From Escherichia coli (lineage in GTDB: Bacteria > Pseudomonadota > Gammaproteobacteria > Enterobacterales > Enterobacteriaceae), in assembly GCF_044324875.1 (NCBI RefSeq), contig NZ_CP172185.1: a stretch of DNA of 64,000 nt. One strand, given 5' to 3'. The position numbers were made by a program. Of this stretch, positions 52,237-55,200 are shown one piece after another; the stretch's first letter is position 1, and each line of letters opens with the position of its first letter.

Positions 52237-55200
52237 TGACCACTACAAAACAGCATGGTCAGATAAAGTGGTTTTTCCCGGACATAAATGTTTCCCCTCT
52301 CTCATCCGCCAGAGAAGCATCAGTCCGTTGTGTGCAATTCCGTTCTGCATGATGAAGAGATTCAGCTGCCTTTTCGCAGACCATTAACCACTATAAACGA
52401 TCGATAGTAACGATCGATACCTGTTTTATCGATCGTTTTATTCTATTAACGGCAGGGAAGTCACGCAAGAGAAAGAGGTGGGTATGAGGGGGGGGGGGTC
52501 ATGTTTTCAGTTGGTTAACGCAATGTAATCAGGCATTTCCCCTGGCAGAGTGTTCAGAAGAAAATCCAGTTCCATACAGCGCGGGCAACAGAGACCACCG
52601 AGTCACGGACGGCACGCAGAACCGTGCGTGCAACAGAGGCAATACAGACGCTCTCCGCCGTGTCAAATATCCGGTCCACCGCACCGGTAAACTGTTCACG
52701 GGCCTGAGACCGGACAGATTCCGTGCGCAGCTCGTCCTGCAGGCGGGTCATCAGGGGACTGGCGGCATGGTCGGGAAGCGCTGTCATGAGCGCACTGACC
52801 AGCGTATCCAGTTCCCAGCCGGTGCGGGCCGATACGGCCACAACCGGATGTACGGGCCGGAACAGACGGAATACCGCCTCCGTTTTTTCGCGAATATTCT
52901 GTGCCTGTGCGGGAGAAGGCTGAATACCGGCCATATCCCATTCATGGCAGGGCTCCGTTTTGTCGGCCTGCGTCACCACAAACAGCACCTGCTGATGTCC
53001 CCGGTGCAGGATGTGTCGCCAGAAATACTCATCCACAGACAGGGCGCGGTCATCGGCTTTAATCAGCCACAGCACCAGGTCCAGTTCGGGCAGAATGTCA
53101 CGGTACAGGGCTTCATACTCTGCATCCCTGTCCCGGCTCTCGCCCACCCCGGGCAGGTCAGTGATAACCATGCTGTGACCGTGGCCACTCAGACGGAAGC
53201 GCCGCACTTCCCGGGTGCCGGCGTGAACATCACTGACCGGGGTGACCTCCCCCTGAAACAGTGCATTACAGAGTGAGGATTTACCGGCCCCGCTTTTACC
53301 CATAATGCCAATCACGGGTTCGTGACTGGTGAGTTTGCGCAGATGTTCCAGGATGTGACGGGAAAGTGAGTAAGGCAGGGAGGAGAGCGGTTTTTCAATT
53401 GCCTCAATGGCATCAGACGGATTCATACATGTATTCCCGGTGAAAAAAGACAAAACCCCGCGCACCGGAAAGGTGGCGGGGGATTCACGGAGATAATATC
53501 TGTCTGAAATTGTTTTGAATCGATGGGATTGTTGCGTATTAACATGAAGGAGATCAGGACTTATCCGTTACTGGGTGATCTCCTTCCATGAAAATACGCC
53601 GTTATTGTTAAACAGCAGGCTGATTTCTCCGTAAAGGGGAAAATATTTATCGGCTGTATGATTATCAGGTGTGTCTGTGTTTACTGCTGTGAGTATTTTT
53701 TAGTGTATTGTGGGGGAGATGTCAGTGGGAGATATTAAATTTACGTTTATAATTATCTTACTTCTTCTGTGTGTTTTTTATAAGAGTGCACACGTAATGA
53801 TATCTGTTGATACCATGTGGTTAAGTGTTTCCCTTCCTGGTCATGCGTAATGATTAAATGCTTTTGTGACACCATTCTTCCGGTCTGAATATTTATCCCG
53901 TTCTTTTTTATTTGTGCAGTGATACTGTCGGAAGAGAATTCAGTAATGTGAGGTGTCCTGGTCAGGATAATATCTGCTGAGATATTATTAGTTGAGGGTG
54001 TTTTTACTGAGCAAAAGCTGGCTTTTAATTCCTGTACTGAAACACTGTCGCTCGTCCGGGGTTAACTGAAACTGGATGATGATGTAAAATGAAGGCTGTT
54101 TTTGTGTTTGTCGAAGAAGTGTTATTTTAATCCATTCTCATCATTGGCTGGCGATTATACAGAAGTATTTGAAGAAAAAATGGTGCATTTTATCTGTGTC
54201 AGCAGGGAAGAAGTATTTTATTGATGTATCAGTATTAAATGGTTTTTGTTATTTATAAAAATGTCATCCTGTCCATAGAATATTGTACTCAGCATTCAGT
54301 GCAGGAACTGTAGTCTTCTTTATTTTATTCTTCTTCAGGAGGGGGGTGATTCCTGAAGGCGTTATTCCCGGTGTTCTGTTTATGATTCTTCCCGGCAGGA
54401 AACCGGTATCTGCAATACCCGGGATGATGCTTTTTGTTCGTACGTGGTTGTGTAAAATTTGAATAGTGGATGTGCTCCGAAGGGAAGGAGGGGACACACA
54501 GATTCATTTTGTCTTTCTTCAGCAGCAAAATACACTGTGGTTATTATTTAACCATTAAATCAACAAAAATTTTTACCTCATATTGATTTGACTGCTATTT
54601 TTGCTATTAATAGCCAGAATTGCAGTGCTTTTATATCTGTGTATAGTGAGGTTACTATGTCATTCGGTCAGCCTTGTGATGAGTTTCCCCTGAGTTCGCT
54701 GCCTCCACTCATTCGTGATGCCGTTATTGAAGCTCAGCAAATTACGCAGGCTCCCCTTGGGCTTGTGGCAGCGTCTGCCCTGGGCGCTGTTTCACTTGTC
54801 TGCCAGAATCTGATTGATGTCTGCAGACTGAATACACTGCGGGGGCCGGTCTCTCTTTTTTTCCTGACGCTTGCCGAGTCCGGAGAACGAAAAACCGCAG
54901 TGGACAAATTATTAATGAAGCCCCTGTACCAGCAGGAGATGCAGTTATATTCCAGATACAAAAGTGAACTGGCTGTCTGGAAAAACAAGGAAGAGCTTTT
55001 AAAGGCTCAGAAAAAAGCATTGTTGTCAAAACTGAATAAAGAACTCCGCAAAGGCGCGGATGAGTCAGAAACCCTCAGACAACTGGAAGTACTTCAGAAA
55101 AACAGTGCGGAAGAACCTGTGAGGTATAAATTCATTTTTAATGATGCCACGACTGCGGCAATTAAGAATCAGCTTTGTGGTAAATGGCGTTCAGTTGGTA

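What the first reader, a model, noticed from the sequence alone, without database searches (positions are those of the whole stretch)
53470..54590. About 1.1 kb of gene-free AT-rich DNA inside the island
No ORF with a plausible start and family spans this stretch between the YeeP-like GTPase gene and the DUF3987 gene. Islands of this type are known to carry small RNAs and regulatory regions in such gaps, but I cannot identify one by eye.
Basis: inference. Interest (0 to 1): 0.3.

Follow-up and report, generated by a model that had tools for sequence, protein, structure and literature searches.

The report
Non-coding spacer with regulatory ends
The 1.2 kb AT-rich stretch is real and common in E. 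coli islands, but most of it shows no sign of a gene or structured RNA; only its two ends carry conserved control elements for the flanking genes, so it is largely ordinary.

Summary
A 1,230-nt stretch (53427-54656, GC 0.38) lies between the divergent YeeP-like GTPase gene and yfjI (DUF3987). It is the largest internal ORF-free stretch in the window. At least 80% of it is present in 1,867 of 5,426 complete E. coli genomes, and NCBI's annotation pipeline (PGAP) annotates nothing in it.

I found no hidden gene. No ORF survives across the three sequence types, indels are not multiples of three, and period-3 signal is absent from most of it. Pfam and PHROGs give nothing, and two searches of 5.8 billion proteins return only sporadic E. 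coli calls from this same locus.

I found no structured sRNA either. Rfam gives no hit and the central 0.9 kb folds no better than shuffled sequence. That centre is seen only in E. coli, is mosaic and indel-rich, and shows no detectable constraint.

The conserved parts are at the ends:
- **Left end (53427-53519, minus strand):** the GTPase gene's own conserved box plus a leader holding an intrinsic-terminator hairpin. The structure, not the sequence, is conserved across GTPase paralogues down to 50% identity, including K-12 yfjP.
- **Right end (54591-54626):** a GCTATT-based palindrome upstream of yfjI, conserved in several other enterobacterial genera and in K-12 CP4-57.

A 70-nt MITE-like (small mobile inverted-repeat element) insert sits at 53534-53603.

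Verdict: a mostly ordinary intergenic spacer, with low to moderate interest in its two end elements.

The parts
52554..53426 (-). YeeP/YfjP-type GTPase gene (left flank of the gap)
   Evidence: Pfam MMR_HSR1 at E=9e-15. PGAP annotates an 873-nt CDS in the 99.9% identical locus L001.
53493..53519 (-). Conserved box upstream of the GTPase gene. On the minus strand it reads TTCAAA (53519-53514), a 15-nt spacer, then TATTAT (53498-53493). The 16-nt core TTCAGACAGATATTAT (53508-53493) is the most conserved sequence of the leader. It is a probable promoter/operator.
   Evidence: The core TTCARRYAKATATYAT is shared by GTPase paralogues of 50-100% protein identity. The upstream context varies, and includes divergent ORFs whose starts lie only 130-180 nt upstream of the box, so a promoter must lie near the box. 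Function is inferred, not shown.
53427..53492 (-). Leader of the GTPase gene. It holds a GC-rich hairpin (53481-53456) followed directly by the U-tract TTTTGTCTTTTTT (53455-53443). An outer helix GTGAA/TTCAC (53488-53484 with 53444-53440) closes around it. The ATG is at 53426.
   Evidence: The terminator scan finds it. Folding gives MFE -26 kcal/mol, z=-3.1 and sliding-window z=-4.1. All 38 distinct leaders from metagenomes, IMG/VR and K-12 have a hairpin of -11 to -22 kcal/mol followed by UUUU(U)GUYUUUU. Stems are no more than 50% identical between the three groups, with compensatory changes within groups. 95 of 124 pattern hits have the GTPase ORF directly downstream.
53534..53603 (.). 70-nt MITE-like palindromic insert, flanked by an ATTGTT direct repeat (53528-53533 and 53604-53609).
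   Evidence: Inverted arms at 53534-53556 and 53576-53599 (I7+I8). It is cleanly absent from the L004-type gap, which shows the empty site. Diverged copies occur elsewhere in chromosomes, on plasmids, and as an annotated stem_loop in phage P-EibC.
53604..54590 (.). Central AT-rich non-coding DNA, seen only in E. coli in the collections searched. No conserved ORF and no structured RNA. It is mosaic, with indels bounded by short direct repeats.
   Evidence: Similarity in other genera is limited to the palindrome. True plasmids and phages match only the MITE-like element, the leader end or short stretches.
54252..54281 (+). Best sigma-70-like site facing yfjI (TTTATA-18-TAGAAT), inside the block that is 99% identical between two gap types. 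It is only a candidate yfjI promoter.
   Evidence: Consensus scan only. The count of sites does not exceed that in shuffles: 5 found against 3.5 expected.
54591..54626 (.). Imperfect 36-bp palindrome built from GCTATT hexamers (ACTGCTATTTTTGCTATTAATAGCCAGAATTGCAGT), 65 nt upstream of the yfjI ATG. It is a probable operator.
   Evidence: It is unique in the window; chance expectation is 0.02. It is present 65-96 nt upstream of yfjI homologues in 15 of the 16 loci recovered from other organisms, and in K-12 CP4-57 between alpA and yfjI. 87% of cells are paired but only one pair changes on both sides, so it looks like a DNA palindrome rather than a covarying RNA helix.
54657..56141 (+). yfjI (DUF3987) gene (right flank of the gap)
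   Evidence: Pfam DUF3987 at E=1.3e-95. PGAP annotates a 'YfjI family protein'.

Best explanation
The stretch is a composite, non-coding, divergent intergenic region. It is not a hidden gene or a small-RNA locus.

Left end, about 95 nt (minus strand). This is the GTPase gene's own control unit: a conserved box (probable promoter/operator) followed by a short leader. The RNA of that leader folds into a GC-rich hairpin plus U-tract, which is the form of an intrinsic terminator, only 16 nt before the start codon. An outer helix can reach the ribosome-binding region. The most likely mode of action is attenuation. Most transcripts would stop at the hairpin, and read-through would set how much GTPase, and possibly downstream island genes, are expressed.

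Right end, about 65 nt. A GCTATT-based palindrome travels with yfjI in many genera and most likely binds a dimeric regulator that controls yfjI.

Centre, about 1 kb. This is AT-rich filler. It was probably left by rearrangement or decay of the variable cargo segment of this island type, was later invaded by a small palindromic mobile element, and is now evolving without detectable constraint. Like other AT-rich foreign DNA in E. coli, it is probably coated by H-NS and may hold the yfjI promoter.

Shown here: absence of coding and RNA-structure signals, the distribution, and conservation of the two end elements. Inferred: attenuation, protein binding at the palindrome, H-NS coating, and the origin of the filler.
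For: **No gene.**
- No ORF of at least 15 aa is kept across the three sequence types, and many indels are not multiples of three.
- There is no period-3 signal over 53454-54503, whereas the GTPase gene gives z=3.5-7.5.
- Pfam and PHROGs return nothing for the ten longest open frames.
- Two searches of 5.8 billion proteins return only short, mostly partial hits. All that carry a name are E. coli hypothetical calls, with no Pfam domain and few members.
- The start, frame and end of the best open frame differ between variants.
- tblastn with neighbouring proteins from related islands finds nothing.

**No structured RNA in the centre.**
- Rfam gives nothing credible even at E<=10; the four sub-threshold rows are ciliate telomerase RNA, IS102, an animal microRNA and a human lncRNA.
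- Folding z-scores are about 0 over roughly 53640-54330 on both strands. The one sub-threshold minus-strand window, 54330-54449 (z=-2.7), contains a helix that is broken in the L002-type sequence.

**No detectable constraint.**
- Divergence from the L004 type is 0.19-0.30 in the centre, against 0.086 at four-fold sites of the adjacent gene.
- Within the window-type clade, gap pi is 0.0088 (27 of 1,061 sites segregating) against 0.0136 at third codon positions of the adjacent third of the GTPase gene.

**End elements.** Leader. Palindrome.

**Distribution.**
Against: - The stretch keeps a length of 1.21-1.33 kb in three diverged sequence types and in a third of E. coli genomes. That is unexpected for useless DNA in a bacterium.
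- A 220-nt block (54090-54310) is 99% identical between two types whose flanks are 75-92% identical. This could reflect selection, for example on a promoter, rather than gene conversion.
- The plus strand is strongly G+T-rich, with GC skew +0.26 and AT skew -0.21. I cannot explain this.
- A weak period-3 signal at 54290-54470 (z=3.3-3.9) coincides with an open frame preceded by AGGAGG.
- No expression, H-NS binding or termination data were available, so the functional statements about both ends are inferences from sequence.
Confidence: 0.65

Rival explanations
1. The centre encodes an unstructured regulatory RNA or a long 5' untranslated leader of yfjI. It would be transcribed rightwards from a promoter in the conserved block (for example 54252-54281). 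The AT-rich DNA would be a silencing and read-through control region (H-NS, Rho) for the island's putative replication gene.
For: Sigma-70-like sites face yfjI, and two of them lie inside the 99%-conserved block. G+T excess on the plus strand is the direction expected for long-term transcription of that strand (inference from established knowledge of transcription-associated mutation bias). In window-type islands yfjI has no alpA gene directly upstream, unlike in other genera, so its promoter must lie in the gap.
Against: Promoter-like sites are no more frequent than in shuffled sequence: 5 against 3.5. The L004 type is only 75-80% identical in the same block, with indels. There are no structure or covariation signals. 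There are no expression data.
Confidence: 0.15
2. The stretch hides one or more small hydrophobic proteins. The best candidate is 54346-54462 (plus strand): GTG three nt after AGGAGG, 38 aa, VIPEGVIPGVLFMILPGRKPVSAIPGMMLFVRTWLCKI. A second candidate starts at the GTG at 53725 (MGDIKFTFIIILLLLCVF...).
For: The frame and stop position of the last ~36 codons are kept in the three gap types compared (L002/L003, L004, window). T is enriched at codon position 2, with a period-3 signal of z=3.3-3.9 at 54290-54470. A strong Shine-Dalgarno-like AGGAGG precedes it.
Against: Between window type and L002 type I count about 13 amino-acid changes against 3 synonymous changes over 36 codons, by reading the alignment. 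That gives no sign of purifying selection. The GTG start is absent in the L002 type. N-terminal parts are in different frames in different types. Some variants end early (LFVCT) or are frameshifted. The database holds only a handful of sporadic calls; all that carry a name are E. coli. The T-rich plus strand is poor in stop codons, so open frames are expected by chance. For the second candidate, the GTG start is lost in L004 and a 1-nt indel changes its C-terminus in L002.
Confidence: 0.07
3. The AT-rich DNA next to yfjI is the island's replication origin. DUF3987 is used as a primase/replicase marker in phage satellites.
For: DUF3987 is used as the primase marker of PICMI/PICI-type satellites (PMC10803314). 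Origins are usually AT-rich and adjacent to the initiator gene (established knowledge). The GCTATT palindrome has four repeated hexamers.
Against: There are no tandem repeats and no iteron family in the gap. The only repeated motif is the short palindrome, which in other genera sits in a 130-nt alpA-yfjI spacer without any AT-rich kilobase. The centre is not conserved outside E. coli.
Confidence: 0.03
4. The stretch is a recently decayed protein-coding gene (pseudogene), such as the cargo or regulatory genes found at the equivalent place in related islands.
For: Related islands carry genes at the equivalent positions: a 385-aa ORF directly upstream of the GTPase leader in L007; yfjJ-rnlB cargo between yfjI and yfjP in CP4-57; low-GC ORFs near yfjI in other genera. 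There is a 102-codon stop-free run on the minus strand at 53756-54061.
Against: tblastn with all of those proteins gives nothing at E<1. The 102-aa frame has no homologue beyond calls from this same locus. There is no period-3 remnant. By my rough estimate, a run of that length is expected about 0.2 times by chance at this composition. Any coding origin is therefore too old to be recognised.
Confidence: 0.1

Closest known systems
K-12 cryptic prophage CP4-57: the alpA-yfjI spacer and the rnlB-yfjP spacer
   Same: The alpA-yfjI spacer holds the same palindrome (CCTGCTATTTCCGCCATTAATAGCGGAATAGCC), 78 nt before the yfjI ATG. The rnlB-yfjP spacer holds the same box (TTCAGATAGATATCAT) and a hairpin plus U-tract just before the GTPase start.
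   Different: In CP4-57, yfjI follows alpA in the same direction, and cargo genes (yfjJ to rnlB) separate yfjI from the GTPase gene. Here yfjI is inverted and faces away from the GTPase gene, and 1 kb of AT-rich non-coding DNA lies between them. That central DNA has no match in K-12. CP4-44 has only the 3' 555 nt of yeeP and no equivalent gap.
Intrinsic-terminator attenuators in 5' leaders, and promoter-proximal terminators of antitermination-controlled operons (lambda PR'-tR'; P. aeruginosa PalpB-tB)
   Same: A conserved element at or in the promoter. A -10-like hexamer near the transcription start. A GC-rich hairpin plus U-tract shortly downstream. A long same-strand gene block behind it (PMC7969949, PMC9371919).
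   Different: No sensor, alternative antiterminator helix or leader peptide was identified. No cognate antiterminator is known. The island's AlpA is a 68-aa PF05930/HTH_17 protein. The P. aeruginosa antiterminator AlpA is a larger protein with a Q-like fold (residues up to at least 142 are described, PMC9371919). The shared name must not be read as homology, and its binding motif GGGACG-N5-GGTA is not present here.
IsrC and other island-encoded small RNAs (Rfam RF00124 IS102/IsrC, RF01387)
   Same: The same island type carries IsrC between yeeP and flu in K-12.
   Different: Nothing in the gap matches any Rfam family. The window's Rfam hits lie elsewhere: istR at 1438-1567, and RF01387 at 51058-51180 inside an IS element.
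Small palindromic mobile repeats of enterobacteria (MITE, ERIC or REP-like elements)
   Same: The 70-nt insert has terminal inverted repeats, a 6-bp flanking duplication, an empty site in a related locus, and scattered copies in chromosomes, plasmids and a phage record.
   Different: Copy number is low, 1-6 per genome, and most copies are the gap itself. I did not match it to a named repeat family.
H-NS-silenced AT-rich intergenic DNA of horizontally acquired islands
   Same: About 62% A+T against about 50% for the window. It lies in a foreign island between divergent genes.
   Different: H-NS binding was not tested and cannot be tested with these tools.

Membership tests
Protein-coding gene | An open reading frame kept, in start, frame and stop, across diverged copies | tested here: not met
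   No ORF of at least 15 aa survives in L002, L003 and L004. There are many indels that are not multiples of three.
Protein-coding gene | Homologues or a family match | tested here: not met
   Pfam and PHROGs give nothing below E=0.01. Two searches of 5.8 billion proteins return only sporadic calls from this same locus; all that carry a name are E. coli. tblastn with neighbouring proteins is negative.
Protein-coding gene | Three-base periodicity and an excess of synonymous change | tested here: not met
   Period-3 z is -1.3 to 0.9 over 53454-54503, against 3.5-7.5 in the GTPase gene. There is a weak signal at 54290-54470, but there I count about 13 non-synonymous against 3 synonymous changes in the alignment.
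Known small RNA or cis-regulatory RNA family (Rfam 15) | A covariance-model match | tested here: not met
   No family reaches its gathering score. At E<=10 only implausible hits appear: ciliate telomerase RNA, an animal microRNA and a human lncRNA.
Structured non-coding RNA (any) | Folding more stable than shuffles, and pairs kept by compensating changes | tested here: not met
   For the centre, z is about 0 over roughly 53640-54330 on both strands. The only lower windows (minus 54330-54449, z=-2.7; plus 54510-54629, z=-2.4) contain helices not kept in the L002-type sequence. The feature is met only by the leader hairpin at the left end.
Intrinsic terminator / 5'-leader attenuator (left end) | A GC-rich hairpin directly followed by a U-tract on the transcribed strand | tested here: met
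   Hairpin 53481-53456 plus TTTTGTCTTTTTT. The same architecture is in all 38 distinct leaders, with different stem sequences.
Intrinsic terminator / 5'-leader attenuator (left end) | Location inside the transcript of the regulated gene, downstream of its promoter | tested here: inconclusive
   The conserved box 30-70 nt upstream, together with the variable upstream context, argues for an own promoter. No transcription start data exist. A K-12 3'-end map lists no end upstream of yfjP (PMC7815308 supplements), but expression of that gene under the mapped conditions is unknown.
Intrinsic terminator / 5'-leader attenuator (left end) | Conditional read-through (a signal, alternative structure or factor) | not testable with these tools
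   No alternative antiterminator helix was recognised. This needs in vitro transcription or reporter assays.
Q / P. aeruginosa-AlpA-type antitermination promoter | A binding element in the promoter, a -10-like pause element, a downstream terminator, and a cognate antiterminator protein | tested here: inconclusive
   A conserved box, a -10-like hexamer and a terminator are present. No cognate antiterminator was identified. The island's AlpA is a 68-aa PF05930 protein, so it is probably unrelated to the P. aeruginosa protein (PMC9371919). The ABE motif is absent.
Operator (protein-binding palindrome) upstream of yfjI | Dyad symmetry conserved in sequence at a fixed distance from the gene | tested here: met
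   Present in 15 of 16 loci from other organisms and in K-12, 65-96 nt from the ATG. 87% of cells are symmetric, with little covariation.
Operator (protein-binding palindrome) upstream of yfjI | A protein that binds it and changes transcription | not testable with these tools
   Needs EMSA, ChIP or reporter assays.
Replication origin | Iterons or tandem repeats, and initiator boxes | tested here: not met
   No tandem repeats. Only two-copy chance-level direct repeats.
MITE-like mobile element (53534-53603) | Terminal inverted repeats, a target-site duplication, an empty site, and several copies | tested here: met
H-NS-bound silenced DNA | High A+T in acquired DNA | tested here: met
   GC 0.35-0.40 across the gap, against 0.50 for the window.
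H-NS-bound silenced DNA | H-NS occupancy and derepression in an hns mutant | not testable with these tools
   Needs ChIP-seq or RNA-seq.

The most novel reading that the evidence does not exclude
The conserved box plus immediate terminator in front of YeeP/YfjP/YkfA-type GTPase genes is a promoter-proximal switch of the lambda-PR'/PalpB kind. RNA polymerase would start at the box, pause at the -10-like TATYAT, and normally stop at the hairpin, releasing a ~50-nt RNA. An island- or helper-encoded factor loaded at the box would let it read through into the GTPase gene and the long same-strand block behind it (Ag43, antirestriction, RadC-like and toxin-antitoxin genes). That would give CP4-type islands a single on/off control for their 'late' module.
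Probability: 0.1. Interest if true: 0.6.

Novelty: new member of a known kind. Interest (0 to 1): 0.25.

Why it matters
For genome annotation, the result removes a candidate. This recurrent 1.2 kb gap in E. coli Ag43/YeeP islands need not be searched further for a missed gene or a known RNA.

Two by-products are more useful. First, a terminator-containing leader appears to be a fixed companion of the poorly understood YeeP/YfjP/YkfA GTPase genes in cryptic prophage-like islands. Second, a palindrome appears to be a fixed companion of yfjI, the DUF3987 putative replication protein.

Both are simple, testable handles on how these widespread islands keep their genes quiet or switch them on. These islands carry Ag43, toxin-antitoxin and anti-phage genes.

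Tried and rejected
- **Rfam.** Permissive search over 52000-56000 and gathering-threshold search over the whole window: nothing in the gap.
- **Decayed copies of neighbouring genes.** I ran tblastn with the 385-aa ORF that precedes the GTPase leader in L007; two ORFs of L006; K-12 YfjH, AlpA and YfjJ; and 14 low-GC ORFs next to yfjI in other genera. There were no hits at E<1. The one apparent hit, L006 hyp2 at E=5e-5, is only the shared 66-nt palindromic element.
- **Pfam and PHROGs** on the ten longest stop-free frames: nothing.
- **Origin of replication.** No iterons or tandem repeats.
- **RfaH ops element.** None in the gap at up to 2 mismatches.
- **tRNA or att relic.** No tRNA or tmRNA anywhere in the window.
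- **Inversion scars around yfjI.** The only hit is a T-rich 22-nt match (53434-53455 with 54507-54528), which is degenerate in the L002 type and judged to be chance.
- **Hairpin 54386-54425 (TCCCGG/CCGGGA) and the MITE hairpin as conserved RNA.** Both are broken or absent in other gap types.
- **One-column-structure covariation test of the leader hairpin.** Abandoned because the three lineages have different loop and bulge geometry, so MAFFT columns are out of register. I used per-sequence folds and shuffles instead.
- **Linking the leader to the island's AlpA** through the P. aeruginosa AlpA antiterminator. Rejected as a probable coincidence of names.
- **Literature.** Searches for yeeP, yfjP or ykfA together with small RNA, terminator or UTR, and the K-12 3'-end map, gave nothing on these elements.
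Full report
**Observation.** The stretch is real. The 99.9% identical RefSeq locus L001 instead places the GTPase start at the ATG at 53426 (873-nt CDS) and the yfjI start at the ATG at 54657. 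That ATG is preceded by GAGG, and the N-terminus it gives aligns with homologues from other genera. The non-coding interval is therefore 53427-54656, 1,230 nt. It is the largest internal stretch of the window without an ORF of at least 90 aa. Its GC is 0.38 against 0.50 for the window, and its plus strand is strongly G+T-rich. Pfam confirms the flanks: MMR_HSR1-type GTPase, and DUF3987 at E=1e-95. An AlpA-family gene (57152-57358, minus) and a 200-aa ORF lie downstream of yfjI and converge on it.

**Distribution.** At least 80% of the stretch is present in 1,857-1,867 of 5,426 complete E. coli genomes, almost always on the chromosome, with a median of two matching places per genome. PGAP annotates nothing in it in any of the five gap-bearing records inspected. 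There are three sequence types:
- the window type;
- an 86-88% type (L002, L003, L005), also present in E. coli Nissle;
- a rare type (L004) that is only 70-81% identical between 53600 and 54340 and then nearly identical to the window type up to yfjI.

Outside E. coli I found nothing homologous to the centre. True plasmids and phages match only a 66-nt element, the leader end or short stretches. In 16 loci recovered with YfjI from other organisms, similarity is limited to one ~35-nt motif.

**Is there a gene?** I found none.
- No ORF of at least 15 aa is retained in all types, and indels are frequent and mostly not multiples of three. Several are bounded by short direct repeats such as CGTAATGAT or GTGTC..CCTG, as expected for slippage in unconstrained DNA.
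- Period-3 power is at background over 53454-54503 (z -1.3 to 0.9), whereas the GTPase gene gives z=3.5-7.5.
- The ten longest stop-free frames have no Pfam or PHROGs match.
- The 102-codon stop-free minus-strand frame and the 67-codon plus-strand frame each retrieve only a handful of short hits from 5.8 billion proteins. These are mostly 'partial' hypothetical calls from this same locus, and all that carry a name are E. coli.
- Proteins encoded at equivalent positions of related islands find nothing by tblastn. These were the 385-aa ORF of L007, K-12 YfjH/AlpA/YfjJ, and low-GC ORFs of other genera.

The most gene-like piece is the open frame ending at TGA 54462, which is preceded by AGGAGG and gives a weak period-3 signal (z=3.3-3.9). 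It fails on comparison. Its start and N-terminal frame differ between types, and some variants are truncated or frameshifted. Between window and L002 types I count about 13 amino-acid changes against 3 synonymous changes in 36 codons (read). Open frames are also expected on a T-rich, A-poor strand.

**Is there an RNA?** Rfam gives nothing credible even at E<=10. The window's two real Rfam hits lie elsewhere. Sliding-window folding shows excess stability only at the left end. Over roughly 53640-54330 the z-scores are about 0 on both strands, and the minus-strand RNA would be almost structureless. The few weaker windows further right contain helices that are broken in other gap types.

**Constraint.** Four-fold sites of the adjacent GTPase gene differ by 0.086 between window and L004, while the centre of the gap differs by 0.19-0.30. 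Among 11 distinct window-type sequences, gap diversity is 0.0088 (27 of 1,061 sites segregating), against 0.0136 at third codon positions of the nearest third of the GTPase gene. Neither comparison shows purifying selection on the centre. One 220-nt block (54090-54310) is 99% identical between window and L002 types although its flanks are 75-92%. Gene conversion between the several island copies per genome is the simplest reading, but selection on a promoter in that block cannot be excluded.

**Anatomy: left end.** Homology with all other GTPase-bearing islands, including those with a different upstream gene (L007), runs from the ATG to about 53527. On the minus strand this segment reads TTCAAA-N15-TATTAT, then CTCCGTGAATCC, then the hairpin CCCCGCCACC/TTTCC/GGTG(C)GCGGGG, then TTTTGTCTTTTTT, then 16 nt to the ATG.

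K-12 yfjP has the same layout with a completely different stem: ACGGCAGAACC/TCGC/GGTTCTGCCGT plus TTTTTGTTTT. A pattern built on the box and the U-tract retrieved 124 sites from metagenome contigs, IMG/VR loci and K-12. Of these, 95 had a YeeP-like ORF directly downstream, and most of the rest lay at contig ends.

The 38 distinct leaders fall into three groups, with GTPase identity to the window of 95-100%, 56-60% and 50-56%. Every one has a hairpin of -11 to -22 kcal/mol immediately followed by UUUU(U)GUYUUUU. Stems are at most 50% identical between groups and show compensating double changes within groups. Each is far more stable than its shuffles, with z from -2.8 to -8. An outer helix (GUGAA/UUCAC here, CUGAA/UUCAG in the yfjP group) closes around the hairpin and can extend into the ribosome-binding region.

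The sequence upstream of the box varies. In some loci a same-strand ORF ends 31-114 nt away. In others a divergent ORF starts 130-380 nt away. The box is therefore most likely the GTPase gene's own promoter/operator. I read the unit as a promoter followed by an attenuating intrinsic terminator. That is inferred from sequence, and no start-site or 3'-end data exist.

**Anatomy: insert.** Positions 53534-53603 are a 70-nt palindromic element with 23/24-nt terminal inverted repeats and an ATTGTT flanking duplication. The L004 type shows the empty site. Diverged copies lie in an ibrAB island, on pVir68-type plasmids, and after eaaC in phage P-EibC, where the depositors annotated a stem-loop.

**Anatomy: right end.** The only part of the gap with matches in other organisms is the imperfect palindrome ACTGCTATTTTTGCTATTAATAGCCAGAATTGCAGT (54591-54626). 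Its consensus is TGCTATTTCYGCYATTAATAGCGGAATAGCA, and it lies 65-96 nt upstream of yfjI homologues. It occurs in Dickeya, Pectobacterium, Brenneria, Erwinia, Kluyvera, Citrobacter, Siccibacter, Mangrovibacter and others, and in K-12 CP4-57 between alpA and yfjI. It is unique in the window.

In the other genera, and in K-12, the order is int, a low-GC ORF, alpA, the palindrome, then yfjI. Here alpA is elsewhere, yet the palindrome stays with yfjI, so it belongs to yfjI. Pair counts show 87% symmetric cells but only one pair with changes on both sides. Mismatches are compatible with neither strand's RNA consistently. A protein-binding operator is the better reading. The binding protein is unknown.

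CP4-44 retains only the 3' 555 nt of yeeP behind IS2 and yoeA, so it has no equivalent gap. CP4-57 has both end elements, but the centre has no counterpart. There, yfjJ, abpAB, yfjM and rnlAB lie between yfjI and yfjP. Relative to that order, yfjI is inverted in the window-type island. The AT-rich kilobase occupies the place of the variable cargo segment.

**Most likely explanation.** The stretch is a composite divergent intergenic region. It has functional control elements at both ends, a small mobile insert, and about 1 kb of unconstrained AT-rich filler. The filler probably derives from rearranged or decayed cargo, is probably H-NS-coated, and possibly contains the yfjI promoter.

**Rivals.** I keep four: a long untranslated yfjI leader or unstructured RNA (0.15), an unrecognisably old pseudogene (0.10), a small hydrophobic protein (0.07), and an origin of replication (0.03).

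**Novelty.** The gap itself is an ordinary kind of thing. The GTPase leader and the yfjI palindrome are not in Rfam and were not found in my literature searches. They are new instances of well-known kinds: a terminator-type leader and a palindromic operator.

The leader's layout resembles promoter-proximal terminators controlled by processive antiterminators, such as lambda PR'-tR' and P. aeruginosa PalpB-tB (PMC7969949, PMC9371919). I give that reading only about 10%. The island's 68-aa AlpA (PF05930) is probably unrelated to the P. aeruginosa protein of the same name.

Noticed in passing
window 53534-53603: A 70-nt MITE-like palindromic element with an ATTGTT target duplication. The empty site is visible in locus L004. 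Diverged copies occur in an ibrAB island (L006), on pVir68-type plasmids, and as an annotated stem_loop after eaaC in phage P-EibC (AF151674).
   Followed up: partly
L002 about 4430-4500 (window-equivalent about 53846): The L002/L005-type gap carries a different 65-nt palindromic insert (core GATCACGGTTTGGCCAAACCGTGATC) between two CGTAATGAT repeats. L003 has the DNA between the same repeats deleted.
   Followed up: no
L004 about 3360-3400 (window-equivalent about 53900): The rare L004-type gap contains a heptanucleotide tandem repeat, (GCGCCCT) x5-6. It could be a slippage-prone tract.
   Followed up: no
window 51058-51180 (+): Rfam RF01387 'isrC Hfq binding RNA' matches at 147 bits. The match lies inside the IS3-family element (about 51026-52239) that interrupts the Ag43 gene, overlapping the start of its first ORF.
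   Followed up: no
window 52351-52448 (-): The region downstream of the GTPase gene, where K-12 has IsrC, matches the E. coli IsrC/IS102 model only weakly (20 bits). It shares only about 51 nt with the K-12 isrC region, so the sRNA appears diverged here or disrupted near the IS insertion.
   Followed up: partly
window 1438-1567 (+): A full-length istR (RF01400) match at 147 bits. It is unrelated to the finding.
   Followed up: no
window 56201-56240: A perfect 17-bp inverted repeat with a 6-nt loop between the convergent yfjI and the 200-aa ORF. It is probably a bidirectional terminator.
   Followed up: no
window 48858-52239: The Ag43 (flu-like) gene is interrupted by an IS3-family element: ORFs at 51026-51373 and 51493-52239, and the Ag43 frame resumes at 48858-51041.
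   Followed up: no
window 53600-54500: The plus strand is strongly G+T-rich (GC skew +0.26, AT skew -0.21). This is as extreme as in the membrane-transporter genes at 14.3-18.4 kb, but without any coding signal. It is unexplained.
   Followed up: partly
L008-L023 (other genera) and L024 (K-12): In islands from other genera, yfjI sits directly after a small alpA-like ORF and a P4-type integrase. One of two unrelated low-GC ORF families lies between them: YfjH-like on the opposite strand, or a 210-350-aa family on the same strand.
   Followed up: partly
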